Assembly (NCBI RefSeq): GCF_001447785.1
Contig: NW_015169181.1
Coordinates: 989,643-1,053,642, forward strand
DNA: 64,000 bases
Source of the DNA: Gekko japonicus
Taxonomy: Eukaryota
Direction: 5' to 3'
The position numbers and the translations under genes were made by a program. The notes beneath the pieces are model-generated. The model had not been told where the DNA came from. It made no database searches and saw only the letters and a list, made by a program, of their open reading frames with translations. Positions 3,183-61,770 of the stretch are shown here, in pieces. Positions within the stretch are counted from its first letter, which is position 1, and every line of letters begins with the position of its first letter.

Positions 3183-3375
3183 TTCAGGTGGGGTAGCCGT
3201 GTTGGTCTGAAGCAACAGAACAAAGTTTGAGTCCAGCGGCACCTTTGAGACCAACAAAGTTTAATTCTGGGTATAAGTTTTCGTGTGAATGCTCAGTGTG
3301 CATGCACATGACAGCTTATGCCCAAAATTAAACTTTGTCGGTCTTAAAGGTGCCCCTGGAATCAAACTTCGTTCT
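3183..3375. mobile_element. Penelope-derived palindromic short element
   Basis: GTAGCCGTGTTGGTCTG...GGCACCTTT..GACCAACAAAG inverted arms; homologous to 24650-24842 and 31668-31882. Confidence 0.7.
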
Positions 3376-18610: not shown

Positions 18611-19099
18611 AGTTTACTTTACTTTACTTTACAATTAGATTTATATACTGCCCTTGACCCCTAAGGGGTCTCAGAGCGGTTTACTACGTAGTTTTTGTCC
18701 TAACCTAGGGCCACAATTCGAAGGGGGAGGGGCTGCCTGGAATCTCTGTTGCAAGAAACCATCAAAAACTACACTACCACAGGAAATTACGCTGGCATGG
18801 AAGCCGCCACTGTCTGCATCTGCTTATGGCCAAAATAATTCAACACTGGGGGGGTCCATTGTGTAAATTAGAGGCAGCGGGAGGGGGCTATGGTTTGGAA
18901 TCCCAATAAGGATCACATTTTTCTTGAAGAGGGTTTAAAGATACTGTGGGAAAGTGCATTTTATGATCAAGGAAATTACGTAAGGCAGGAAGCCTGATCC
19001 ATATTGTCCTCAGCATTTGTTTTCGCAGCTAAATTACACGCTTGGGGGATATCTGATCACATTCCCCAGAGTCACATCTCGCTTGGCTGTGATTTCAGC

Positions 19100-19266
19100 T
19101 GTTGTAGCCTGATCTCGTCAGATCTCAGAAGCTAAAGAGGACTGGCCGGGCTCACTATTTAGATGGGAGACCCCCAAGGAAGTCCAGGGTCCCTGTGCAG
19201 ACACATGCAATGGCAAACCACCTCTGAACATCTCTTGGCTTGAAAGTCGGCTGTGACTTTACAGGC
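19100..19266 (+). mobile_element. 5S rRNA-derived SINE
   Basis: 5S-like head GCCTGATCTCGTCAGATCTCAGAAGCTAA...GATGGGAGACC followed by GCAATGGCAAACCACCTCTG body. Confidence 0.75.
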
Positions 19267-23485: not shown

Positions 23486-26400
23486 GTATCGTTTTGGTAG
23501 CTTGACTTCAAGTTTTAAAAACAGATGGCTACCGTGCATGGTGGGCAGGGATTTGAATTTCACAGTGTCTGTGACTGGAGGGAAAACAAGGAGTAGACTT
23601 GGCCAGAAGCAGCACCGAGTACCTGCGCCTTTGCAAAGGAGGGATGGTCTGGAGATTTCACGAGCAACATAAGTCCACAGGAAGAGCCCTGGGGGGCTAC
23701 GCGGAGTAAAGACCAAAGGCCCACCTCCTAGGGAAGTTCCCTTTTCCCGTTTTGTTAGATTATCATCTTGATTTATTTCTATTGCTCATTTTCCTTTAGT
23801 CCAACAGGAAGGCTGTGCTGTCTGTTTCTCATCTGCTGTGCTCTTCTGCCTCTCTCTCTCCCCTGGCCTCCCGCTGGACTTCACCAGAAGTCGATCTGTT
23901 GCAAGAGTAGTTTGCCCGTACTGGTTGGAAAGCTTAGGTGTCCGTTTCAGAACTATTGCTCTCCCGTCTCCACCCCCCCAAAAAAACCCTCCCATTCAAC
24001 CAGATTGCTAGGCAATGGGGGGGGGGAAATGTAATTGGTTCATGTTTCTGTTTACAACACATAATGCAATAAATGCGTCTTTTTCAGTTCCCCACTTTGT
24101 CTCAGGGGGTGGTTAGGGAATGAAAGCACATCCCTACCATTTAGTCTGGAAAGCGTCTGCCTTGATCCAGGGAAGTCAGTGTGTGCCACTGCAAGTGCCT
24201 TCAAGGTCCCGATCTCGAGGACTGACACTGCACTCTTGTTATCCCACCAGGAGGGAAGAGGGCCCTCCAGTCCAGCTCTCTGGTGGGTCGGTGACCGAGG
24301 AGAGGAAGTGAGGTGGAGTTTTGAGGAGCTGGTGGCTGGATCCAAGAAAGCGGCCAATGTGCTTTCTGAGCAATGTGGCCTGCGGAAGGGAGACCGCGTT
24401 ATAGTGATCCTGCCGCGGATACCCGCGTGGTGGCTCTTGAATGTGGCTTGTATGCGAACAGGTGAGCCAGAACGACCTTTGTTTACTGAGCCAGGTGTCA
24501 CTTGGAAAGGAAGATCATGGGGCCCCACCGAGGCTGCCTTATACTCAGCCAGCCCACTGTCCGTCATGGTCAAGTTGCCGACTCCAGCTAGCAGCCGCTC
24601 TCTGGGGTCTCCAGCAGAGGCCTCTTTCATCACCAACTACCTGATAGGTTTTTTTGAGTCCAGTGGCATCTTTAAGACCAGGAAACTTTTATTCTGGGTA
24701 TAAACTTTCGTGTGCAGGCACACACTTCTTCAGATACACACAAAAGCTTCTGCCCAGAATTAAACTTTGTTGGTCTTAAAGGGACCACTGGTCTCAAGCT
24801 TTGTTCTGTTGCTTCAGACCAACACAGCTTTCTACCTGAATCCTCTTAAGTTAAGATGCCAGGGATTGAACCTGGGACTATCTGCATGCAAAACTGATGC
24901 TCTGCCGCTGAGCCCAGGGCTGCTCCACTCATGTATTCTGTGTCTGGGAGAGGGGGAAAGAGGATCACTCTGACTGTGAATATGGGAGAAAGATACCGTC
25001 TGCTCAGGTAAAGGTAAAGGTTCCCTTGCTCGAAAGCCAGTCGAAGCCGACTCTAGGGTTGCGGTGCTCATCTCCGTTTCCAAGCCGAAGAGCCAGCGCT
25101 GTCCGAAGACATTTCCGTGGTCATGTGGCCGGCATGACTAAACACCAAGGCGCATGGAACGCTGTTACCTTCCCACCAAAGTGGTACCTATTTATCTACT
25201 TGCAATGTCTTGCTTTCGAACTGCTAGGTTGGCAGGAGCTGGAACTATAGACGGGAGCTCACTCCGTCATGCGGCACACTCGGGTCTCGAACTGCTGAAC
25301 TACCGACCTTCCACAGCCTGCAGTTCAGCGTCTTAACCACTTAAGCCACCACAGCTCCTCAGGACTCTGCTCAGGACTGCCTTCTAAATTCTGTAGCTGC
25401 TCCCTCCAAAACCTGGAAGCAAGGAACACCTTATCTTCCCAATTTGCTCTCTCTCTCTCTATTAGGAACCGTTCTTATTCCCGGGACGACGCAGCTGACT
25501 GCAAAAGACATTCTGCACCGACTGCAGGCATCCCGAGCCAAGTGCATTATCACTGATGGAGTTTTGGCCCCAGCTGTAGACAGTGTAGCTTCCAAATGCC
25601 CGTCTCTAGCATCCAAGCTAATAGTGTCAAGGGACCACCGGGATGGCTGGCTCAGTTTCTGTGACTTGTTGAAGTACGTACCAGCTTTTCATCCTGGCGA
25701 CATGGGATGCTTCTCCTGGGAGATGGTGTTCAGAATTTGCTGGCTACTGCAGCTAGGCAACATCTTCCTGCTTGCGCCCAACCAAAGATGTGGCTCTCTA
25801 ACAATGTTCCCTTCTTTGGGGACATTTCTTTCACTGTCTGTGAACACTCAGGACAAAACTGTAGTTGTCCTTTTCCCCAAACACATTAACAACATTTGAT
25901 AGAAGAACTGCCGTTTAAAATTGTTGGCTGTTTTTTCATCCGTTGCCTGTAAATGGCTTGTGGTGTAACAGAAACAAACAAAAACAGGACATTTGCCTTG
26001 GCCGGATGTAGGCAGGATGGGAAAGGACCATGCACCAAAAGGACAGGGGAATCGCATTTCTGTGCACCCGAGTGATCCCCTCAGCTTTACAGCAGTCCCT
26101 GAGTATGAACCAGGCTGAGCAGACTGCAACAATGAAAAGTTTGAATGAAATGACATTTTCATCCCACCCTTTCTCTCTCTTTTTTTTTAACTGCCCTCCA
26201 AAGGGGCAGGATTTTATTACATTTTCCACATAACATACATAAACAATCATAACCTATACATACATATACTAACATACAAACAAATACATGGAGGTTATTC
26301 TTAATTCTACCAATATTTATACTAATACCTATTCCGCCTTAATAACAATTTCTCATGAACTGTGTAAGCAACTTTTCATCCCACCCTTTCTCCAAGGAAT

Positions 26401-29400
26401 ACAGGACAATGTACATGGTTCTCTCCTCCTCCATTTTAGTCTCACAGCAACCCTGCAGGGTAGGTTATGCTAAGAGAGAGTGGCTGGGCTAAGGCTGCCC
26501 ACGGGATGTCAAGATGAAGTGAGCTCTGACGCCAGGCCGCCCAACTTCAAGTACAGCATTCCGGCCGCTACACTGCATGCAATCTAGAAGTAGGGGGGGT
26601 CTCGTGAAGTCATCACCATTATTACCACTGCTTTATGAACGCACATGCTTTTATCTCGCGCATCTCTATGTCCTGCAGCCTTGCACCTGCCGACCACAAG
26701 TGTGTGGCCACCAAGAGCTGTGAGCCAATGGCGATCTACTTCACCAGCGGCACAACAGGTGCTCCCAAAATGGCTGAGCATTCCCACAGCAGCCAGGGAA
26801 TTGGACTTGCTCTCAACGGCAGGTAGGCAAGGCATGGTACTCTGGGTGTGTGCGGTGTTTTCTAGCTTCTTATGTCCTGATCAATGTTTCCTCTAAGCTC
26901 CACAGCACTGTGAGCAAAAATTCTACCTCGTAAGCAAAAAACCCTAGTAGCATTACAGATTTGAGTGAGTCTACATTTGACTTTTGCATATTCTTTTAAA
27001 CTACATTTTAAGAATGATTTAATTATAAGAGAAGACAGAATCGTCAAATTTCATTACAGAAAAGGTTGTCCTCTATGGGGGTAGACGAGGCCTCTGGAGA
27101 ACAGGTCTACTGACCCACCCCTTTCCACTATATTGGTAGACCTGGCCTTCAGAGAACAGAGGGAAGGGGAAACACTTGCCGTCTACTTTGGGTTTGTTTG
27201 TTTTTTAGTGAAATATGAGAAATTACAGGTCAAGTATAACAGAGGTGGAACAATCACTGTCAAAACCCTGCCTAACCTAACAAACAGGAAGTTGCTTAAA
27301 TGTTATCAACCTGCCCAAACTGCTTATTTATTTAAATATTTATATCCCACTTTCCCCTGTGACTCAAGGCAGCTTACAAATCATACTGAAAAGCACAGTA
27401 ACACCCGCTGGTGTTAGAGAGCCCCTGGCTGCATGGACATGACCGTTACATTTTGTGGGATGAAGGGAAAGTACAGTTCATCTCCCCTCGGTGCCAAGAG
27501 CACCGCTGGAACACGCAATGGGGGCCCCAACCGGTCCTGGAAAACCCTAGGGCGTGTTTGGCCCAAGAGGAATTACAATCCATTCTCCCCGAATACTGGG
27601 ACTTGGCTAGGGTTTTTGAAGAAGAAGAAGCTGATGAGCTCCCCCCCATAGACATTCAGACTGTAGTATCGAGTTACTGCCGGGTCACAAATTACCTAAG
27701 GGGCGCATTTATGCGATGGGGCCGGCAGAAAAGGATGAACTGCATAAGTTTATCGACAAGAACCTGGCAAGGGGTTTCATCCGACCAGCCTCCTCCCCAT
27801 TTGCTGCCCCAGTGCTGTTCCGGAAAAAGGACGGGGGCTTACGGTTGTGCACGAATTATCGGGGGTTAAATGCTGTGTCATCGACTAATGCCTACCCCAT
27901 GCCCCTCATCAAGGATTTACTAGCTGAGGCGGCTAAAGGGAAGGTCTTTTCAAAACTAGACCTCCGAGATGCCTACTTTCGGGTTCGCATCCGGGAGGGG
28001 GACGAACACAAGACTGCCTTTACTACGCCCCTCGGCAAGTTCGAATACCGCGTGATGCCATTTGGTCTTCAGGGGGCTCTGGGGGTCTTCATGAACTTGA
28101 TTAACGAAGTATTCCACAAGCACCTGTTTAAGGGGGCCCTTATTTACCTAGATAATATTTTGCTGTATTCCCCCGACCTCCCCTCTCACGTGAAGTTGGT
28201 GAGGGAAGTTCTGATGACATTGCACAAGCACAAACTGTTCACGAAACTTTCCAAATGTGAGTTTCATAAGTCACACGTTGACTTCCTGGGGTATCGGATA
28301 AGGGTTTGGAAATGGACCCAGGGAAGGTCTGCAATGTGCTGGATGGGAGACCCTCCGCACCCGCCGCCAATTATAAGCCTTCCTCGGTTTCGCAAATTTT
28401 TACCGAAATTTCCTACCCAATTTTGCTCAAATCAGTTTGCCCCTCACTGACTTGTTAAAAACGAAAGGGAAGGGTCCGGAGGCTACCAAGCCAGGGGCGG
28501 CGCTTACTTGGAGCAAAGAGTGCCAGGAGGCTTTTGACCCCCTTAAATCCCTGTTCACACCTGAACCCGTATTAGCCCCCCCCGATGAAAATAAAAAACA
28601 CATTGTTCAAGTCGACGCCTCTAACATAGCTATGGGGGGCGATCTTGCAAGAGGGGGCTGACGGGTTACTGCACCCCCTCGCTTACATTTCCAGAAAGTT
28701 TAATGACACTGAGCAGAACTGGTCGGTTTGGGAAAAGGAGGTGGGGACGATCCGGTTTGCGCTCGCTACCTGGAGGCACTGGTTGGAGGGGGCCCGAGTC
28801 CTGTTTGAGGTGTGGACTGATCACAAAAACTTGAAAATGCTTAAAACACCTCGGAGCCTCTATGCCAAGCAGCTCCGGTGGGCTGATTTCTTTTCCAAGT
28901 TTCAATTCACCCTTCATCATTTCCCCGGTTCTGCGAACTCCCTCGCTGATGCCCTGTCCCGCCTCCCGCAGCACGACAGCCAATGGGAGGTGATTCTGGA
29001 TTCTATGTTTATGCTCTCTCAATTCGGCGGGGCAGTGACTACGCGAAGCCATTCCAGGCCCTCCCCACCTGCTTCGCAACCTGACCCTGCTATCCACCCC
29101 CCTGCCACTCCCAGCGGGAACCATTGGAACAGTAGGTATATCGCCGCCTTCTCGGAGGGCGACGAGGCGGAGGTGGAAGCAAAAGGGGGGTTGGAAGTCA
29201 AACCCGATGGGTGTTGGTACCGCGGCAACAAACTGTTTCACATTCCCTACGGGGGGAAGTATTGAACGCGGTACATGGATCAAAATTGGCCGGTCACCCT
29301 GGGTTTGTTAAATCCCTGCAGCTGCTGCAAACACAACTTTGGTGGCCGCAGATGCAAAAGGATTTGTCAGCGTTTGTGAAATCGTGCCAGACTTGCGGCA

Positions 29401-32400
29401 TGTGCAAGTCCAGACCGGGGAAACCCCCCGGATTGTTGCAACCTCTCCCAACTCCAAGTAGGCCGTGGGAGGCGATCTCCATGGACTTTATCACGGATTT
29501 ACCCCTGAGTAAGACTGTGTCGGTCATTTGGGTGGTTGTGGACTTATTCTCTAAGCAAGCACATTTTGTCCCATTCGCCTCCCTACCCATGGCAAAAGCG
29601 CTGGCAAAGGCTTCCTTGCACCACGTGGTCAATCTCCACATGCTCCCAGCTAAAGTCATCTCCAATAGGGGGCCCCAGTTCGTTTCCCGATTTTGGGGGG
29701 AGCTTATAAAACTTATGGGAACTGAACCTGCATTAAGCAGTGCTTATCATCCCAAGACTGATGGACAGACGGAACGTGTAAATCAAACTTTGGAACAATA
29801 TATGCGCTGCTTCACTAACTATCAACAAGATGATTGGGCGGATCTCCTACCCCTTGCCGAGTTTTGTTATAACAACACGTATCATTCGTCTACAGGAATG
29901 TCCCCTTTTAAAGCGTTGTATGGTTATGAAAGCCCCCCCGGTACCATTCTTGGAGGGACCCATTGACTTGGGGATGGGGGATGCTGCACAATGGTGTCAA
30001 CACCTGAAGGACTCTTGGCCTTTATAGCTTGCAGCACCATCTCTGGGATCGCTTGGATTACTTCCTCAAGTTCCCGTCTCAGTTGGCGCCTGTCCCTTTC
30101 CACCGCCTCCAGGCGATGGGCCAATTCCAGTCCCTCGTCTGGGGAAGAGCGCCCACTTCGTGCCCTGGAGCGGTCTGTCACCCAGGGCCCGAGCAGCGGT
30201 TCCAGGACTCCCCCTAACGAGGGGAAGCCCCCTGCGGCTCCGGGGGCCCCGTGGAGCATAGATGCAAAGCCCACATCAAACCGGCTGTCCCTTTGGGGCT
30301 CCTGTGTGAGTGCGCACGTTTCCGTCATTGAGTCTGGATTAAAGTGGCCCCACCTTAACGAATTCAGTCGATACCCCTGCCCGGGCAGTTGCCTCGGTCC
30401 GCAGGGGGTCAGGAAAAGGTAGGTCGAGGTCGTTTTAGGTACGGTTCCCAGCCCCGTTTCCTTCCACGGGGTAGTCACCGGTGGTGTGGTCTGGGTGGTG
30501 GGGGTTTCCCCCCCAGTCGTTGTTGGAGGTTTCTCCTCTTCGTCGCTCATCTCAGGTGGCGAGACACGTAGGTAGAGAAGGTGAGATTCCTAACAGAATG
30601 TCGGGTTCCACAGCCAAACAAAGGAGTACACGCTTAACATAAGGTTATACTGTATTGCAAGAGCTATGGAGGCAGTAACATAGTCACTGTTAGGAATGGC
30701 TACTTTCCTACAAGCATAAAGGGATATAGGGTATTCGTATGCACACACCCCCACTCCTAGGCCAATCGGCCTGACTCCTGCACGCGGGAGAATGGGGCCC
30801 CAGGCCGTTACAGCCAAAGCTGGGAATCGAAACCTATCCCATGGGTAATAGATGGGGAGACACTACGCACACAGCTAGCTAGGAAGGTCATAGATAAGCA
30901 AGGACAAAGGAATGTGGCATCAGTTGGTACACAGGTCAAGCAGCTGCACTTATTGAGATATATGTCTGATAGAGGTAGCAAGCAGTTACTATAGATCAGT
31001 TTGATCTGTCTGTCAAGTCTAGCTGTCAGGCTAGTAACCATGTAATTGCAGACAGGTGTTTCTAACAGGTGTTACTCTTTCAAGTCTTGTTATAGTGATT
31101 ACGTCACCTTGTTAGAGATTGGCTGGGGTTCAGCATAATAGCTATCAGCTTGGTAAGCTAGGGGGGACTTAGTTCTCATAGACTAAGGCACGGCATGCTG
31201 TTCTATAGCCTGTATATATCTCTGTATATATTCACCTTTATAACTTTATAAACTCTCTGTGCACTTTCATAACTGGTCAGTCTCCAGCTTCTTATTTACA
31301 ATACCCAATAGCACTCTCACCCATAAACATCATGGCAGCATAGCTGACAGTTTATTTGTTACTCTAGAGACTCTAGGCTCAGCCGCTCAGCCCTCAAGTT
31401 CTGCATCCAAACCCTGCCCTGATCTCAAAGCTGTTTCATGTTGGTGGTAGCCCCATCAATGGGGCTTCTCTGAAGGAATTACACATCCTGTACATTTTTA
31501 AAATTCTTGAGGCACAGTGCAACAGAAAGCTTTCTGGTATACTGTCAACTTCAGCACTCATCTTCCGCCCATGGCTTGGTATAAAAATACCTTTGTGTGT
31601 TCGATGTTTTGCAAGTCAGCAATTTCAAGTTTTGAGCCTCGTCCTACGTGACAAATCCTGCAACCTTTACAGCAGAACAAGTTTTGAGTCCAGTGGCACC
31701 TTTAAGTTTTATTCACCGTTGAGATCAACAAAGTTTTATTCTGGATATAAGCTTTTGTGTGCATGCACAGTATGTGCGCATGAAAGCTTACGCCCAGAAT
31801 AAAACTTTGTGGGTCTTAAAGCTGCCACTGGACTCAAACTTTGTTCTGCTGCTTCAGACCAACACAGCTACCCACCTGAATCAATCTTCACCCCAGTTAA
31901 CAGCAACATACATCTGCTTCCTGTTCCCTAGGTACTGGCTTGATCTAACCCCCAAGGACCTGATTTGGAACTCTTCTGACACCGGCTGGGCAAAATCCGC
32001 ATGGAGCAGTGTTTTTGCACCATGGAGCCAGGGGGCTGGCGTCTTCGTCCACAGCATGCCACGTTTCGAGCCCAAGCCTGTCCTTGAAGTATGTGACAAG
32101 CCCATGGGCACTTCCCTAAGAACAGGGCTTTTCCTCAAAGTCAGTGATAGTCAGCCGGGGCTAGTGGTCTGAGCATCAGACGAGGGCCCCAGTACGAATC
32201 CACACTTGGCCACAAAGCTCACTGGGTGATCTTGGGCCAGTCAGACCCATTCAGCCTAATCTGCCTAATGGGGGAGGTTTTGACAATAAAAGTGGGACAG
32301 AACTTTGTAGACCTCCCTGAGGTCTGAGGGGGAAGGACAGAATTAAAATGTGCTGCCCTGATATGGGGATGAATCCTTGCTGGCGTGTTGAGAATGCCGG

Positions 32401-35400
32401 TTGAACTGATCTGTAGTACCTCTAGCTTGCTGATCTCGAACAGATCTTGGAAGCTAAGCCTTGATTTGTATGTGGATGGGAGACCACCAAGGAAGTCCCA
32501 GGACTGTTGCGCAGGAGCAGGCAATGGCAAACCGTCTCTGTTTGTCTCTTGCCTTGAAAACCTATTTTGTTCAAGTCAGGGGTGAAAGAGGGGGATTCCT
32601 TTGTCCCCGTTATTATTTAATATCGCGATGGATCCACTGATTTCGGAGTTGGAGAATTTAGATGGGGGTTTCGAGGTAGGAATAAGAGGATTTCCGTCCT
32701 GGCGTTTGCAGATGATCTGGCGATATTAAGTAAGGATTGGGCCCATATGGCCCAGTTCCTGAAAGTGGTAGAAACATTCTGTGCTCTCTCTGGTTTGAAG
32801 GTGCAGGCGGAGAAATGTCATGGGCTTTTTATAGCACCTAGTAAAGGTTCTTATGTGGTTAATAATTGTGAAGAATGGTCAGTGGGAGGAGAGAGGCTCC
32901 ATACGATCCCACCTGGCAGTGAGGGGCAGGATCTGGGAGCCGACCTGGACCCGTGGAGGGGAGTCTGTAAGATCAAGACACTGAGTAAATTGGATTCCTG
33001 GTTGATGAAGATCGACTGGGCACCTCTTAAGCCGGCGCGAAAAATCGACCTCCTCACCCTATATATCCTGCCTAGGCTACTATATCTGGCTGACCAGGCG
33101 GATGCGTCATTCATCAAGCCTGAGCCCGATTGATGATTTAATTCGGGGATTCGTGAAAAGATGGTTGCACCTTCCAAGGTGCACCACCAATAGTTTATTA
33201 TATTCTCAGATACGAGATGGAGGCTTAGGTATCGTGTGTTTAGAGAGACTGGTGCCGTCTATCCAGTTGAGACGTCTGTGGAGGGTTGCACAATCAGATG
33301 AAGAAGTAGTAAGAGATTTGTGTTTATTGGGCGGAGTGCAGGAGAAATTTGAGAGACTCTGGTCAAAGCTGGGAGGATTGTTGGATGAGGTTCCGGAGCT
33401 CTTGAAATCGAGAGAAGATCACGTGGAAAGCAGTGAAAGTTGGTTTGGTAGATTGAGAGATTATCGGGATGAGGAATTTGAGAGATGGACATTACTTGTT
33501 TGTCAGGGCAGTGGTGTCCAGCTATTTGGGAATGATGACATCAGTAATTCGTGGTTAAGAGATAGGAGGGACTTTTCATGTAGGCACCTTGAAGATGAGG
33601 GCGAATGTGGTTCCAACTAGGGAATATTGTGCAAGAGGAGGACAAAGCGCTGTTAGGAAATGTAGGCATTGTGAGGCAAAGGTGGAGTCGCTGTCGCACA
33701 TCTTGGGACAATGCCCAAGTGTGCAGAGGATGCGAATCTCCAGGCACAATAAGATCTGTGCGTTGCTAGTGGAGGAAGCGTGGAGCCTGGGATGGAAAAT
33801 TTACCATGAGCCACATTTAAGGACTAGGAATAATTTATTAAGGAAGCCGGATTTAGTTTTCGTCAGGGAAGGGAGGGCATTGGTTGTAGATGTAACCATT
33901 CGCTAGGAATATCTTAAAAATGGCTTGACTCGGGCAGCTAAAGAAGTCCTTTACTATTCTGGACCGAAGGAACAAATACGACATCTGACTGGCGCACAGG
34001 AGGTTGAGTTCTATGGATTCCCCGTGGGTGCCAGGGGAAAATGGTGTTCCGTCAATAATTGCCTACTACGGAAATTGGGCATATGCCCAACAAGGAGAAT
34101 TTGGTTTGCAAAGTTGGTGTCACGGAGGGCCTTGCTGTACTCAATAGATATAGGCTTCCTTAATAAGTTATTCCTAGTCCTTAAATGTGGCTCATGGTAA
34201 AGTTTCCATCCCAGATTCCGCGCTTCCTCCACTAGCAACGCACAGATCTTATTGTGTCCGGAGAGAAGTTGGCTGGGACTCCATGGCACTTTCCACCACT
34301 ACCTCTGACTTCTGCTGAAAGGGTTACGCAATGTCTCTCTTCTTTTTCATTGAACGTGATGGTCTATACGTATCTGGGGCTCAGTGCAGTGTGTGATTTT
34401 GTTTTGTTAAACTTTCCACCTTCTATAATCATCTAGACCTTGTCCAGGTTTCCCATAACGACTTTCTGTTCCGCACCTACTGCTTACCGGATGCTTATCC
34501 ANNNNNNNNNNNNNNNNNNNNNNNNNNNNNNNNNNNNNNNNNNNNNNNNNNNNNNNNNNNNNNNNNNNNNNNNNNNNNNNNNNNNNNNNNNNNNNNNNNN
34601 NNNNNNNNNNNNNNNNNNNNNNNNNNNNNNNNNNNNNNNNNNNNNNNNNNNNNNNNNNNNNNNNNNNNNNNNNNNNNNNNNNNNNNNNNNNNNNNNNNNN
34701 NNNNNNNNNNNNNNNNNNNNNNNNNNNNNNNNNNNNNNNNNCCCTAACCATGGATTTGCGGCATGTAAAAAACCAGCCGTCTGGTCAGGCCCTGAGCAAC
34801 GCTTGGGATCTCATCTGCAGGTATATATATGTGAAATCTGGAATGGGTGAAGAGAATGAGCGGTGATCCCCAATGTCTCTGGCACAGGCTCATGAGGATG
34901 GCCTCAGGCCAGCTGCTCTCTGACCTCCCAGCTGCAAGGTGGGGACACAAATACAGGCCTGCACTGCAGCGGTGTTGTCGGGGTCACACAAAGATCATGG
35001 ACCCAGTTCAGAATGGGAACAAGCTTAAACCCACCCTCTTCTGGTGCCACGATCCCAATCCAATCAGGGCCCTGCTCACCTGATCACTGAGCTTAAAAAA
35101 AAAAAAAAAAACACTGGGAGCTGCCACGCCCAGGGCTTGCTGGTTTGGGGCACCTCGTGCAGCTTTTAAGTTTTTGAACAAGTAAAAATAGTAAAGTGGA
35201 TTGGGCGACTGTAGCCACAAGTTTCCTGAACCCCCTGCCCTGGCACTCCTGACATCTCAGAACATAAAATGCAATGCCTTGCCCTGCTTTTCAAAAATGT
35301 AGGCACCAATGTTCCCTCTAAGCTGTGGAGTCTGGTGAGCAAAAATTCTACTTTGTGAGCTACTGCGAGCGATTTCACTACTGCATAAATCAGTTTGCTC

Positions 35401-55332: not shown

Positions 55333-58300
55333 GTTTTTTTTAATAAGTATTTTTATTTGGTTTCCAATACATACTTAACATATAAGGTAGAGTCTCATAC
55401 ATTTAACTTCTCTATCCAATCATACACCTTAAACCATCTTTTATCATACACTTTTACATTTTTGTTTTGCAAAATCAAACTCAGGTTGTCCATTTGCCTA
55501 GATCTAACACTTTCACCACTAATTCCTCCAGTACTGTGTCTAGTTTCCAGTTCTTGGCCAGTAACAAACGGGCAGCGGTTATTATATACACAAGTACATA
55601 TTTATCCTGCTGGCTATATCCCTTAGGTAACATATTTAATAGATATATTTCAGGTTCCAACGCCAAATTTTTCTCCATTATTTCTTGAATCACCATCTCC
55701 CAATATTCCTGAATTTTACTGCATGTCCACCACATGTGGTAAAAAGTCCCTGTATTAGCCTTACATTTCCATAGGGTTGCCAAATGTCAATTTCTTACCG
55801 GCGGGGGATCTTCTTCCTGGTCCGGGAGCCGGTCGCGGATGCACGCGCGCGTGCCGCCAGGACGTCACCGGAAGAGTTTTCCCCTCAAACGGCGTGGCTC
55901 CGGCCTATAAAGGCTATGGCTTTCATATATTTAACCGATTCCCAAGTTTTGGTCCACATATCTAGCTCTATCTTTTTCCCTATATCTTTCATCCAACTGC
56001 ACATTACTCCTTTCACTTCTTCATCTTTTTCGAAGTCTGTCAGTAAAAAGTTATACAATTTCTGTATAAATTTGTCATTTGAGGATAGCCATATTTTATC
56101 TAGCTCATTATTATTGTCTTCAAATCCTCTTAACATATCTTTTTTATACCTATCTTGTAGCATTGTCTTTTCCCACCAGGATAATATATTTTCCCTTAAC
56201 AACTTTTCTTCTATTATTAATTTATTTTCTCTATTTAGCAAGGTTTTATACGTTATTTTCTTATTTGTTGTTATCAATGCTGGTTGGATGAATGCTTCTG
56301 GGGTGAAACCCATCGTGGTATTTTCTTATAAAATTTTTCTTTTATCTTAGTCCAGAATTTATTTAGTACATCTCTTAACCAATGTTTTCTGAAATTTGAA
56401 TGGATTTTATCCTTTCCGTACCATATATATGCGTGCCATCCCATAAACAAGTCATGCCCCTCCAATAAGAGTAACCTCCTATTTTCCAAGGTGACCCACT
56501 CTTTAATCCAAACTAGGGCGGCCGCTTGATAGTAAAGGTACCAGTTAGGTATATTCAATCCTCCTCTATCTTTTCTGTCCTGCAATACTTTCCATTTTAT
56601 CCTGGCCTTTTTATGCTGCCAAATAAATTGCCTCGTAATTTTACTTAACTCTTCGAAAAAGTTCTGTTTCTTTAATATTGGTATATTTTGGGCTAAGAAT
56701 AAGACTCTTGGCAGGATATTCATCTTAATTAGGGCAATTCTTCCCATGAAAGACAATGGTATATTCTTCCACTTTATCAGATCGTTTGTGATTTCTTTTA
56801 ATAGCACCTTATAATTATCCTCTTCTAGCGAACTACTTTTATTTGTGAGATTTATTCCAAGATATTTTACCTTCCTTACCAATTCCATGGTCGTTTTGTC
56901 TTTTATTTCTTGCACAATTTTAGGTAAACAATTTTTAGCTAGAATCTTGGATTTTTTATAATTTATTTTTAGCCCTTCCACTTGTCCGTAATTTGTGTCC
57001 ATTAAGTGTGTTATTGATGTTTCTGGTTTCTCTAGAATGAACACTAGGTCATCCGCAAATGCTAATAACTTATACGTTTCGTCTTTAACTTTTAATCCTT
57101 CAATCAAGTTATTATTCCTTATCCTATCATTCAATGACTCTTAATGCGAATATGAACAACAGTGGTGACATAGGGCATCCTTGTCTTGATCCCTTTTGAA
57201 TTTGTATATTATTGGTTAAATCACTGTTCACTATGACTTTTGCATACTGCGTTGTGTAAAGGGATTTGACCATTTTATGAAAATACTGACCGCACTCCGC
57301 TCTTTTTAATTTTTGCAATAAAAATTCCCACGATAAATTATCAAAAGCCTTTTCAGCATCAAGGAACATTAACATCAGTTCTTTATCTGCGTGCTCTTCA
57401 TAATATTCTAATACATCTATAATTACTCATACATTATTCTTCATTTGTCTCTTGGGAAGAAAGCCCATCTGATCTAGGTGTATTATTTGTGAGAGTACCT
57501 TCTTCAATCTATTTGCCAAGATTCCTGCAAATATCTTATAATCGGCATTTAGCAATGATATGGGTCTATAATTTTTGACATTACTTAAATCCGAGTTGGG
57601 TTTGGGAATTAAAGTAATTAGTGCATGATTCCATGACTCTGGGATTTTTTCCATTTGCCCTATCCTCTAAAAAGTGTCTTTGAACGTTAATCCTATCTCT
57701 TCTTCAAAAGTTTTATAAAATTCCGCAGGAATCCCATCAGGGCCTGGTGCCTTATTTTTTTGTTTGTTTGTTTGTTTCTTAATAGTTTCAGATATCTCAA
57801 ACATTGTTATGGGTTCATTCAAGATCTTCCTCTGTTGATCACTGAATATATTCTTATCCTCTTTCAAATAATTTTTAATTAATTCTTCATCCTGTTGGTC
57901 ACATTTATATAACTTGCTATAAAAGTTTTCTACTATTACTTTCAGTTCTTGCAAATTAAACTTCTCTTCATTTTTATCGTTACATAGTTTAACTATTGTA
58001 CGCTTTGCTCTTTCTTTCCTTACTTTATAAGCTAACCACCTATTAGGCTTGTTTATAATTCTCAAAGTAATATTGCTTCGTATATTCTATTCTGTGCTGT
58101 ATTTCATGATTCAGCAATAAATTCATTTTATGGTGTAGGAGATTTAATTTAATTTTGGCATTACCACTGTTTATAGCTGTTTTCATACTAGTTTCTTGTA
58201 GTTTAATCTGCTGCATTAGGTTGTCATACTCTTTTTTCCTCTGTTTATTTATCCATGCACTTTGATTGATGAAACATCCTCTTATGTATGCTTTAAAAGC

Positions 58301-59416
58301 ATCCCATATGACTTCCTTGGGGGTATCTGATTTATTATTTATCTTAAAAAATTCCACTATTTCCTTTTTACATTTTTGGACAAATTTCTTATCTTTAAGT
58401 AATTTTATATTTATTGAACTTCTATTTTTTCTATATTCTTCTTTTAGCGTCAAGCGAATGGGACTGTGAGCTGCAAATGTATTTGGTAGTATTTCACATT
58501 CCGTCACATCCTTTATTGTCTCAGCTGACAACCATACCATATCAATCCTAGACCAAGTATTATGCCGTGCTGAATAATATGTAAAGTCTCTTTTTTGCCC
58601 ATTTCTTATTCTCCATACATCTAATAAATTGTGCTCCTCCACTATTTGCAAAAAACGTTTTGGTAGTACTCCTCCCATTTTGGATCTTTTCCTAGCCTTC
58701 TTTCTATCCAGTACTGGGTCTAAGACTGCATTATAGTCTCCTAATATGCAAATATTACTAACTATTGTTTGGCTCAAAATTGTTTGTATTCTTTGGAAAA
58801 ATTCCTTTTGATTTTGATTAGGTGCATAAATATTTATTAGAAGAATTTTTTCCCCATTTCTCATAATTGTGATAGCCATTATTCTACCATCTTCTGACCC
58901 ACATACCCATTCGGGCTCTAAAAAATCTTTTGCGTAAATCACAACCCCTCTTTTTTTTCATCAACCGATGCAATGAACACTTTACCTAGCTTTTTGCACT
59001 CTAAGTATTTATCATCAGTCTTTTTAATATGAGTTTCCTGTAAGCATATTATGTCAGCGTTTATTTTCTATAATTGGTGGAATGTTCTCCTTCTCTTGTG
59101 TGCACTATTTAAACCATTTATGTTTATTGAAATAATATTAAATTTATTACCTGCTGTCATTTTCTTTACTTAGTGCTTGTTCCCTCTACTTTTATGTTTA
59201 AATCTGGTCAGAATGTGGTAGGTTGATTTGCTAGGTTTGGGTTTATTTCGTTTTACCTTGTTTTCTTTCTTTTTATATGTCTCTTGGTGTCTGCTTTCTA
59301 CCTCTACTTCCTCTTCTCCTTCTTCCTCCTCTTCTTCCTCTTCTTCTTCTACCTCTTCTCTTTGCAAACCCAGGTCCTCACCAAAATGTTCAAGAAAATT
59401 CTCTACTTTAAACACT
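55333..59416 (-). mobile_element. L1 LINE: ORF1 C-terminus + whole decayed ORF2 (ATG 59160) + 3' end
   Basis: MTAGNKFNIISININGLN..CLQETH, NIYAPN, GDYN, SRID, KAPGPDG, YRPISLLNADYK, LDAEKAFD, RQGCPMSPLLF, FADD, KYLG; stops and frameshifts; A tail at ~55333. Confidence 0.95.
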
Positions 59417-60923
59417 GAACAAGCTTGATCTTTTTGTCCAGGGTGGGGAGGGGAGAGGAGATGGCTTGTTAGAGTGTCTTTAGTAGAGAGTTGCAAAGCC
59501 CCGTAGGACTCACTGACACGTGCCTAGGAGGATTGCGTTGTAACAGCTCGATCCCATGCATGTTTTTTTAATAAGTATTTTTATTTGGTTTCCAATACAT
59601 ACTTAACATATAAGGTAGAGTCTCATACATTTAACTTCTCTATCCAATCATACACCTTAAACCATCTTTTATCATACACTTTTACATTTTTGTTTTGCAA
59701 CATCAAACTCAGGTTGTCCATTTGCGCTAGATCTAACACTTTCACCACTAATTCCTCCGGTACTGTGTCTAGTTTCTAGTTCTTGGCAAGTAACAAACGG
59801 GCAGCGGTTATTATATACACAAGTACATATTTATCCTGCTGGCGATATCCCTTAGGTAACATATTTAATAGATATATTTCAGGTTCCAACGCCAAATTTT
59901 TCTCCATTATTTCTTGAATCAATTTCCTTACCATCTTCCAATATTCCTGAATTTTACTGCATGTCCACCACATGTGGTAAAAAGTCCCTGTATTAGCCTT
60001 ACATTTCCAACATTGGCTGGGGTAACCGGAGTAACATTTTGCTATTTTTTCAGGGGACCAATGCCACCTATGGAACATTTTATATGCATTTTATATACAT
60101 TTATATACATATAGCCTATAAAGGCTATGGCTCTCATATATTTAACCGATTCCCAAGTTTTGGTCCACATATCTAGCTCTATCTTTTTCCCTATATCTTT
60201 CATCCAACTGCACATTACTCCTTTCACTTCTTCATCTTTTTCGAAGTCTGTCAGTAAAAAGTTATACAATTTCTGTATAAATTTGTCATTTGAGGATAGC
60301 CATATTTTATCTAGCTCATTATTATTGTCTTCAAATCCTCTTAACATATCTTTTTTATACCTATCTTGTAGCATTGTCTTTTCCCACCAGGATAATATAT
60401 TTTCCCTTAACAACTTTTCTTCTATTATTAATTTATTTTCTCTATTTAGCAAGGTTTTATACGTTATTTTCTTATTTGTTGTTATCAATGCTGATTGGAT
60501 GAATGCTTCTGGGGTGAAACCCATCGTGGTATTTTCTTATAAAATTTTTCTTTTATCTTAGTCCAGAATTTATTTAGTACATCTCTTAACCAATGTTTTC
60601 TGAAATTTGAATGGATTTTATCCTTTCCGTACCATATATATGCGTGCCACCCCATTAATAAGTCATGACCCTCCAATAATAGTAGTCTCCTATTTTCCAA
60701 GGTGACCCATTCTTTGATCCAAGCTAGGGCGGCCGCTTGGTAGTAAAGGTACCAATTTGGCATATTCAATCCTCCTCTTTTTTTTCTATCCTGCAATACT
60801 TTCCATTTTATTCTAGCCTTTTTATGCTGCCAAATGAATTGTCTCATGATTTTATTTAAATCTTCAAAGAAATTCTGCTTTTTTAATATCGGTATACTTT
60901 GGGCTAGAAATAAAACTCTTGGC
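59417..60923 (-). mobile_element. Duplicate of 145-bp flank + L1 3' end
   Basis: 59417-60650 nearly identical to 55187-56439 apart from one replaced segment; remainder is a diverged L1. Confidence 0.9.
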
Positions 60924-61770
60924 CAAAATACACTCGCCACCTAAACAGGGTCGGGGAGGGATATTCAGATGGGCCTTCAGGGCTAGGTGATCTGACCATG
61001 GTACAGCCGAAGCTGTAATCCGGTCCAGTGTTACCCCAGCCACGAAGATCAAATTGAGTGTGTGTCCAGCCTGATGAGTCGGGGTCGTTACAAGTTGGGA
61101 GAGTCCGAGCGCCACCATGGATAACACCAGGTCCGCTGCCAGCATGCAGGTCGCATCATCGGCATGGAAGTTGAAGTCACCCAAGACAATAAGCCTAGGG
61201 TGCTCCAGCGCCCAGCCTGCTATGGCCTCCAGCAGGGACGGTAGGCCATTGGCTGGAGCGGTAGGTGGTCGGTACACCAGCCAAATAGCAACACTCTCCC
61301 TGGCTTCCCACACCAGGCCAACACACTCAATGCCCGTGATTTCCAGCGGTGGGAACGCCCTGAAGGAGTAAGCCTCCCGAATGAACATCGCCACTCCGTC
61401 CCCCCACCCCTTAGTCTGAGATTGGTGAAGGACTGAGAACCCAGGGGGGGAGCTGGGAGAGAGCAAAGGTCTCCCCGTCCCGCACCCAGGTCTTGGTCAC
61501 GCAAGCCAGGTCTAGCCTCTGCTCCTGCAGGAAGTCCCATAGGACCATGATCTTATTATTTACAGACCTGGCATTGCACAGCACCATTGTCGGAGAGGGG
61601 TTATCCATCCTAGCCCCACCGCTGACCACCTTCGGGATGGTTGATAGGCTGGAAGGACACCAAGCCAACTTATTTTTCAGTGCCCTTCCCTTATCTCTTG
61701 GCCTCGACCCACCGCTATACTTTCCCCGCCCCATGAGCACTGGGATCTGTCGGGGAGACATTACCATACC
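60924..61770 (-). mobile_element. L2-clade LINE endonuclease (5') region
   Basis: VLCNARSVNNK, LACVTKTW, VYRPP, LGDFNFH, PTHQAGHTLNL, WSDH. Confidence 0.85.

What the first reader, a model, noticed from the sequence alone, without database searches (positions are those of the whole stretch)
32423..34300. R2-clade retrotransposon outside 28S rDNA, embedded in a 5S-rRNA-derived SINE in an ACSM3 intron
Seen: 32564-34150 translates across frameshifts to RT motifs, a CCHC knuckle and a PD..D restriction-like endonuclease, with R2-typical signatures ([21 protein letters not shown]). No 28S sequence flanks it. The left flank is the head of a 5S-derived SINE, and that SINE's tail resumes at ~34266 with no TSD. 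Established: R2 elements are normally sequence-specific for one site in 28S rDNA. Inference: either this lineage has an R2 family with relaxed or switched targeting (possibly toward 5S-like sequence), or R2 cDNA was captured at a break in the SINE.
Basis: partly seen in the sequence, partly recalled or inferred. Interest (0 to 1): 0.75.

Follow-up and report, generated by a model that had tools for sequence, protein, structure and literature searches.

The report
Stray R2 fragment forming edited hairpin
A dead middle piece of R2, a jumping gene that normally inserts only into ribosomal RNA genes, sits inside a short repeat in an intron of a lizard metabolic gene; it most likely arrived as a one-off DNA-repair patch rather than through a change of target, and it left an inverted repeat that is likely edited by the cell's RNA-editing enzyme.

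Summary
32561-34152 is a decayed internal piece of a vertebrate lineage-A R2, lacking both ends and the 3' UTR. Contigs of independent runs span all three junctions. The insert lies 48 nt past the 5S-like head, in the SINE tail. About 13-15 SINE bases are lost, the left join has 2-4 nt microhomology, and there is no TSD. This is the anatomy of break-repair capture, not target-primed insertion. Depth over the fragment is single-copy; the few other R2 pieces are 81-91% identical and their flanks were not seen. The lost SINE bases resemble the 28S cut site (10 of 15; about 3% by chance), so an off-target R2 nick stays possible. Side finding: in RNA-like runs both arms carry dense A>G changes (likely ADAR editing), and one run shows this intron unspliced next to a spliced one. 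The scan has already noted stray R2 fossils in other vertebrate genomes.

The parts
32561..34152 (+). Internal fragment of a lineage-A R2 ORF, from RT motif 4 through thumb and CCHC knuckle to the RLE. It stops about 20 codons short of the ORF end and has no 3' UTR; 4 frameshifts, 1 stop
33737..33848 (+). Left arm of the inverted repeat (part of the R2 fragment); 16 A>G changes in run X3
34153..34264 (-). Right arm: inverted duplicate of 33737-33848, 7 mismatches in 112; 8 of 9 A read as G in a 25-letter loose end of X3
32424..32562 (+). 5'-truncated SINE: 5S-like head (Rfam match 32409-32512, weak) and the first part of the tail; 2-4 nt shared with R2 at 32561-32564
34266..34299 (+). Remainder of the SINE tail; about 13-15 nt of the family's majority sequence are missing between 32562 and 34266
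   Evidence: tables 5, 5c, 7
32417..32423 (+). Left copy of the SINE's own 7-bp target-site duplication
34300..34306 (+). Right copy of the SINE's own 7-bp target-site duplication
32089..34436 (+). ACSM (ACSM3 by gene order) intron that holds the SINE and R2; GT donor, AG acceptor
31932..32088 (+). ACSM exon upstream of the insert
34437..34501 (+). ACSM exon downstream of the insert, cut by the assembly gap at 34502
26679..26822 (+). Previous ACSM exon (144 nt); its length equals the unlaid part of X8 contig 22 plus the shared AG

Best explanation
This is a dead internal fragment of a vertebrate lineage-A R2 retrotransposon that was likely captured once, as a repair patch, at a DNA break in a SINE already sitting in the ACSM intron. 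Shown: the insert lacks both R2 ends and the 3' UTR, has no TSD of its own, shares 2-4 nt with the SINE at its left join, and ends in a 112-nt inverted copy of itself; about 13-15 nt of the SINE family's majority sequence are missing at the site. Shown by geometry: read inward from either host end, the strand that a host 3'-OH would extend is sense R2 (top strand 32561->34152; bottom strand 33737->33848). In target-primed reverse transcription the right host end would instead carry antisense cDNA starting from the 3' UTR. Inferred: the template was DNA (R2 first-strand cDNA or a genomic R2 copy). Either both broken ends primed on it and were then joined, or one new strand snapped back on itself for 112 nt before rejoining the SINE. 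Inferred age: the arms differ by 6.3% (95% CI 2.5-12.5%), about 3% per arm, older than the 1.5-2% split between the window's allele and the sequenced runs. Inferred consequence: the arms pair in ACSM pre-mRNA and are A-to-I edited; a function for this is not shown.
For: Lineage-A identity: E 2e-44, 4e-34 and 5e-37 to the best of the zebra finch and turtle R2 chains, against 3e-7, 7e-4 and 3e-11 to the silkworm-type chains. In the tree the fragment is sister to full-length P0001 (100/98), inside a 16-row clade (98/99) with the named Platysternon R2 and fish proteins. Junctions are spanned in runs of two studies. Depth over 33226-34188 is 73-99 in X1 and 62-70 in X2, against 76-100 and 83-106 for flank contigs: one copy at 85% likeness or more. 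Another R2 copy continues upstream of 32561 with RT-like codons, which fixes the left breakpoint and the microhomology (table 7). PMC11371274 (passages) says fusions of an internal template region to a genomic site arise from snap-back or other non-TPRT events, because TPRT needs the 3' module. PMC1920257 (passages) defines endonuclease-independent L1 inserts by 3' truncation, no TSD, no tail and divergence from the cut consensus, with target deletions. The SINE's own TSD brackets the whole.
Against: The missing SINE bases resemble the 28S cut site: 10 of 15 at -2..+13, reached by 2.7% of random 30-mers of the window, and the loss is centred on that would-be nick. R2's own endonuclease may therefore have made the break. 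The empty allele was not seen. The 13-15 nt loss is inferred from the SINE family's majority, and the sister copy at 19082 also lacks this segment. Only 2 of 21 human endonuclease-independent inserts had internal rearrangements (PMC1920257 passage), so the inversion is atypical of that class. At 80% likeness 24 records (X1) and 27 (X2) lay on the fragment, 13 of each under 90% alike, so several other decayed R2 pieces exist. Their flanks were not seen, and contigs that run into 28S may be filtered out as human-like. The tree holds no named NeSL, Hero or Utopia row.
Confidence: 0.6

Rival explanations
1. Off-target R2 event: the R2 protein nicked a 28S look-alike in the SINE tail and began insertion, and the intermediate was repaired badly, losing the 3' UTR and a few target bases and gaining the inversion.
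For: 10 of 15 match to the 28S cut core in the SINE majority sequence, p about 0.03, with the deletion centred on it. R2 lies in the orientation that the look-alike predicts. Avian R2 proteins make about 0.1-1% off-target inserts at sites that resemble the target only just downstream of the nick (PMC11371274 passage). Earlier scan notes describe shark strays at look-alike sites (e1-9811425, unchecked).
Against: No match to the upstream recognition region: best 11 of 22, reached by 22% of random stretches; lineage-A proteins bind upstream (PMC11601368 passages). The downstream primer bases and the R2 3' end, which TPRT keeps, are exactly what is missing. The test was made after seeing the match and on a majority sequence, not the true empty site.
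Confidence: 0.2
2. A relaxed-specificity R2 family once spread through this lizard genome, and this copy is one rearranged member.
For: Several other decayed R2 pieces at about single-copy depth, 81-91% identical, some with internal deletions (skips of 60, 85, 237, 284 nt). Non-specific R2 families exist in flatworms (PMC5035012, text read).
Against: Single-copy depth at 85% likeness over most of the fragment. Only a handful of copies even at 80%. No intact 3' end here. The known non-specific families have copies over 98% identical to consensus (PMC5035012). Squamate R2s in print are 28S-flanked (PMC5035012; 8 of 34 Squamata rows seen in Table S2 of PMC13188248, all with upstream 28S).
Confidence: 0.1
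3. SINE and R2 entered together: the reverse transcriptase copying the SINE RNA switched to R2 templates and back.
For: One 7-bp TSD brackets the whole composite; R2 and other non-LTR enzymes jump templates (PMC11371274 passage).
Against: It needs three switches, one onto an antisense template, and a return within 15 nt of the point left. The SINE looks older: the two window copies are 71% identical against 94% between the arms. This comparison is weak because subfamilies were not resolved.
Confidence: 0.06
4. Switched targeting to 5S rRNA-like sequence.
For: The host repeat has a 5S-like head; 5S-specific LINEs exist (Mutsu, listed in PMC10946416).
Against: The junction is 48 nt downstream of the 5S match, in the tail. 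One copy only; no 3' end.
Confidence: 0.02
5. Assembly artefact (chimeric join or false inversion).
For: An N gap lies 240 nt downstream (34502-34741). The window differs from all laid runs by about 1.5-2%. No single contig spans the insert.
Against: All three junctions are in independently assembled contigs; the arms differ at 7 sites; A>G clusters in both arms in RNA-like runs require a real inverted repeat.
Confidence: 0.02

Closest known systems
Vertebrate lineage-A (A3) R2: Platysternon megacephalum R2 (PDB 9nl2; P0004), R2Tg (9dou, 9nl3), and unnamed full-length P0001
   Same: Same RT-thumb-CCHC-RLE order; 46% (P0004) and 52% (P0001) identity over about 490 residues; same clade.
   Different: This copy is an internal, decayed fragment with no N-terminal zinc fingers or Myb, no UTRs and no 28S flank, and carries an inverted self-duplication.
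Non-classical (endonuclease-independent) L1 insertions, Sen et al. 2007 (PMC1920257)
   Same: 3' truncation, no TSD, no tail, loss of target bases, microhomology.
   Different: The donor is a site-specific RLE element, not L1. The inverted duplicate is atypical (2 of 21 L1 cases were rearranged). The empty allele is not verified here, and a weak cut-site resemblance exists.
R2 snap-back and off-target products in PRINT (PMC11371274)
   Same: Internal template region fused to a genomic site in antisense orientation; rare non-rDNA inserts.
   Different: There the snap-back is at the 5' junction with the 3' module intact; here the inversion is at the 3' side and the 3' module is absent. This one is natural and germ-line.
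Non-specific R2 families R2NS-1_SMed and R2NS-1_CSi (PMC5035012)
   Same: R2-derived sequence outside 28S.
   Different: Those are D- and C-clade flatworm families of many young copies; this is one old fragment of lineage A.
5S-Sauria / SINE3 of squamates (listed in PMC10946416 and PMC5786205)
   Same: 5S-like head followed by a tail that I recall as Sauria/Bov-B-like.

Membership tests
R2 lineage A | RT, thumb, CCHC knuckle and PD..D restriction-like endonuclease in one ORF, in that order | tested here: met
   (read across frameshifts)
R2 lineage A | Groups with named lineage-A R2 proteins | tested here: met
   sister to P0001 (100/98), in a 98/99 clade with the Platysternon R2. 22 rows chosen from the 72 of 150 hits covering 75% of the query or more; distant rows unnamed, no named NeSL, Hero or Utopia row
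R2 lineage A | Three N-terminal zinc fingers and Myb domain | not testable with these tools
   region absent from the fragment; sister P0001 has 3 zinc-finger patterns and aligns to 9nl2 from residue 4
R2 (canonical insertion) | Inserted at the conserved 28S site | tested here: not met
   so it is filed as an R2-derived fragment, not a canonical R2 insertion
R2 (canonical insertion) | Intact 3' UTR at the downstream junction (TPRT start) | tested here: not met
   the sense fragment ends at P0001 residue 1315 of 1336 and is followed by the inverted arm
Non-specific R2 family (R2NS type) | Many near-identical dispersed copies with varied flanks | tested here: not met
   single-copy depth at 85%; other pieces 81-91%; contigs drop rare variants and human-like records
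Non-specific R2 family (R2NS type) | Flanks of the other copies are not 28S | tested here: inconclusive
5S-targeting element (Mutsu-like behaviour) | Junction inside 5S rRNA sequence | tested here: not met
   5S match ends at 32512, junction at 32561
Endonuclease-independent (non-classical) insertion | 3' truncation, no tail, no TSD | tested here: met
Endonuclease-independent (non-classical) insertion | Site unlike the element's cut consensus | tested here: inconclusive
   core 10 of 15 (p about 0.03), upstream region at chance
Endonuclease-independent (non-classical) insertion | Pre-insertion allele verified in a relative | not testable with these tools
   no related eukaryote genomes are held
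5S-derived SINE (SINE3 / 5S-Sauria) | 5S rRNA-derived head | tested here: inconclusive
   17.9 bits, E 0.23, below gathering 38; sister copy 31.1 bits, E 0.019
5S-derived SINE (SINE3 / 5S-Sauria) | Sauria/Bov-B-related tail | not tested
   recalled resemblance only

The most novel reading that the evidence does not exclude
The tail of this very abundant SINE carries a decoy of the 28S cut site, so the lizard's lineage-A R2 nicks SINE copies across the genome. This locus and the other decayed R2 pieces would be the scars: a natural intermediate in the escape of a vertebrate R2 from rDNA onto another repeat. Here the scar also made an edited hairpin that holds back splicing of an ACSM3 intron.
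Probability: 0.1. Interest if true: 0.65.

Novelty: new member of a known kind. Interest (0 to 1): 0.33.

Why it matters
As it stands, this is one more stray R2 fossil, with an unusually readable repair scar. Lineage-A R2 proteins of birds and turtles are being developed for rDNA gene insertion, so natural germ-line cases where R2 sequence ended up elsewhere are a small real-world record of mis-insertion routes. The inverted duplicate dates the event and appears to create an ADAR substrate in a host pre-mRNA. It would matter much more if the other R2 pieces proved to sit at the same SINE position, which would give a vertebrate case of target drift.

Tried and rejected
Whole-genome flank table: no genome is held, so copy number and flanks come only from two read lays, whose tables are truncated. 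28S flank: none. TSD for R2: none; the only clear TSD belongs to the SINE. Upstream 28S recognition motif in the left flank: chance level. The search for homologous proteins among longer proteins gave 1 hit among 581 candidates. P0001 is unnamed and four of its motifs were absent from Table S2 of PMC13188248 (cells cut at 400 characters), so whether the sister element is 28S-specific is unknown. None of the 10 distant tree rows looked up was named as NeSL, Hero or Utopia; 9 had no name. The 73-row careful tree did not finish and only the quick tree was seen; the 22-row careful tree finished. No RNA holder is on record. Raw RNA run X22 gave 0 reads in 12% of the run (no test). X21 gave thin cover (0-3x) on R2 and none on the flanking exons in 3% of the run, which I could not interpret. 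No gecko family name was found in the searched supplements of PMC13188248 (files 14-16 not searched). Literature searches for a squamate R2 outside rDNA or in a SINE found no such report in the held library; the gecko/5S-SINE search was uninformative. No look-alike of this sequence among the scan's earlier windows. No structure prediction was run, since identity was already clear by sequence.

Full report
What is there. The ACSM-family gene in this window lies between a THUMP-domain gene and a GRF-zinc-finger gene, which fits ACSM3 by the human gene order (recalled). Its intron 32089-34436 holds a 5'-truncated SINE with its own 7-bp TSD at 32417-32423 and 34300-34306. The SINE head resembles 5S rRNA, weakly in this copy (17.9 bits, E 0.23) and better in a sister copy at 19082-19198 (31.1 bits); the two are 71% identical over 139 nt. 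The host is called a lizard in earlier scan notes (unchecked); I did not establish the species.

The insert is R2. Three reading-frame pieces hit the zebra finch and turtle R2 chains at best E 2e-44, 4e-34 and 5e-37, and the silkworm-type chains at only 3e-7, 7e-4 and 3e-11. A full-length unnamed relative, P0001, maps residues 783-1315 of 1336 onto 32561-34152 at about 50% identity, with four frameshifts and one stop. The fragment thus starts in RT motif 4 and stops about 20 codons before the end of the ORF; there is no 3' UTR. The exhaustive protein search listed 150 of 522 hits, of which 72 covered at least 75% of the query. In a finished tree of 22 rows the fragment is sister to P0001 (100/98), inside a 98/99 clade with the named Platysternon megacephalum R2 and fish proteins. 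No named NeSL, Hero or Utopia row was available, so their exclusion rests on 46-52% identity to lineage-A R2, not on a rooted test.

Between the R2 sense fragment and the SINE tail, 34153-34264 is an inverted copy of 33737-33848, with 7 mismatches in 112 (95% CI 2.5-12.5%). The order is SINE head, R2 sense, R2 antisense, SINE tail.

The locus is real. At 85% likeness, contigs span the left junction (X8 record 22, 31930-33772; X1 and X2, 32531-32747), the forward-to-inverted junction (X1, X2: 33755-34246) and the inverted-to-tail junction (X1: 34227-34500, no differences). No single contig spans all of it. 16 of 24 listed runs hold half or more of the stretch's words, in 5 studies. The runs differ from the window by about 1.5-2%, in flanks and insert alike (for example 39 in 1842 letters for X8), so the insert is shared by diverged alleles, or the window carries errors.

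Copy number. Over 33226-34188 the depth in the two large DNA-like runs (73-99 and 62-70) matches single flank contigs (76-100 and 83-106). At 80% likeness more appears: 24 records in X1 and 27 in X2, 13 of each under 90% alike. These include a 912-letter piece about 81% identical at single-copy depth and pieces with internal deletions. So a handful of older R2 relatives exist. The loose ends shown are short and mostly continue as R2-like sequence, so their flanks are unknown; 28 loose ends and 44 pieces were not shown, and contigs running into 28S may be filtered out as human-like. This argues against a young dispersed family like the flatworm R2NS families, whose copies are over 98% identical to consensus (PMC5035012, parts 1-3 of 5 read), but it does not tell where the old relatives sit.

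Junction anatomy and mechanism. Other SINE copies bridge 32562 to 34266 with about 15 letters, so about 13-15 SINE bases are missing and nothing is duplicated; this is inferred from the family majority, not from an empty allele. Another R2 copy continues upstream of 32561 with RT-like codons, which leaves 2-4 letters shared by SINE and R2 at the left join. The junction is 48 nt past the end of the 5S match, so 5S targeting is contradicted. Target-primed insertion would leave the R2 3' UTR at the right junction; it is absent. The strand extended from each host end reads as sense R2, which points to a DNA template (inference). The PRINT paper attributes fusions of internal template sequence to genomic sites to snap-back or other non-TPRT events (PMC11371274, passages). 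The features also match endonuclease-independent L1 inserts (PMC1920257, passages), and L1 cDNA intermediates are known to recombine with distant breaks (PMC13526784, abstract). I give one-off repair capture 0.6.

The case for an R2-made break. The missing SINE bases resemble the 28S cut site printed in PMC11601368 (passage): 10 of 15 at -2..+13, which 2.7% of random 30-mers of this window reach on either strand, and the loss is centred there. The upstream region that lineage-A proteins bind shows only chance similarity (11 of 22; 22% by chance). Off-target sites of avian R2 in cells (about 0.1-1%) resemble the target only just downstream of the nick (PMC11371274). The test was made after seeing the match. 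I give this rival 0.2.

A side effect on the host RNA. Run X3 (RNA by the tool's guess) has 19 A>G places, 16 of them in the left arm: 16 of 35 A there against at most 3 of 309 A upstream (Fisher p 3e-15). The locus's own contigs in X1 and X2 do not show them. A 25-letter loose end of X3 matches the right arm with 8 of 9 A read as G and all other letters identical. X8 shows A>G at 33742 and 34234, and its contigs break inside both arms. The arms fold into a long stem (-283 kcal/mol for 33737-34264). This is the pattern of ADAR hyper-editing of a plus-strand transcript (established knowledge); DNA and RNA come from different animals, so it is not proven. X8 contig 22 leaves the genomic sequence exactly at the acceptor at 31930-31931 with 142 unlaid letters. 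With the shared AG these equal the 144-nt previous exon; I saw the length only, not the letters. The same contig runs through the donor at 32089 into the R2-bearing intron at the depth of the exon, while the upstream intron's unique part has depth 0. This suggests the intron is retained or spliced late in that sample: one run, and no causal link to the hairpin is shown.

Novelty. Severely mutated bird R2 copies and 28S-flanked gecko and snake R2 are in print (PMC5035012). Full-length squamate lineage-A R2s are catalogued (PMC13188248: passages, part 2 of 9, 8 of 34 Squamata rows of Table S2; long cells cut, files 14-16 not searched, so a closer relative could be hidden there). My searches found no report of a squamate R2 in a SINE. 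The scan itself has six notes of R2 fossils outside rDNA in other genomes (unchecked). By the definition that includes the 28S site this copy is not a canonical R2 insertion, but it derives from one. It is a new example of a known kind of event, with a well-preserved scar and a likely edited hairpin. Interest 0.33.

Noticed in passing
window 33737-33848 and 34153-34264: Dense A>G changes in both arms of the inverted repeat in RNA-like runs X3 and X8, absent from the locus's contigs in X1 and X2: likely ADAR hyper-editing in ACSM pre-mRNA.
   Followed up: partly
window 26679-26822, 31932-34436: X8 contig 22 appears spliced at the upstream intron but runs unspliced into the R2-bearing intron, and no separate spliced contig lay on the two flanking exons: possible intron retention.
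   Followed up: partly
window 32690-34050 (raw RNA run X21): Thin read cover on the R2 fragment but none on the flanking exons or unique intron, in 3% of the run; the source (this locus or another transcribed R2) is unexplained.
   Followed up: no
runs X1/X2 laid on 32548-34215: Several other decayed R2 pieces, 81-91% identical, some internally deleted, at about single-copy depth; flanks unknown.
   Followed up: partly
window 19082-19260: Second copy of the same 5S-headed SINE; it lacks the same tail segment that is missing at the R2 site.
   Followed up: partly
window 27638-29966 (+): Broken pol-like frames (RT, RNase H and integrase-like by eye) of an LTR retrotransposon in the ACSM intron upstream; not tested.
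   Followed up: no
window 55775-60940 (-): Decayed L1/Tx1-like LINE frames with a duplicated 3' part; weak RT match to P0001.
   Followed up: no
window 3238-3354, 24673-24778, 31700-31890: Copies of a very abundant palindromic repeat that give spurious miRNA matches in Rfam.
   Followed up: no
protein P0001: Unnamed, apparently intact 1336-aa lineage-A R2 protein, the nearest relative of this fragment; four of its motifs were not found in the visible part of the published R2 table.
   Followed up: partly
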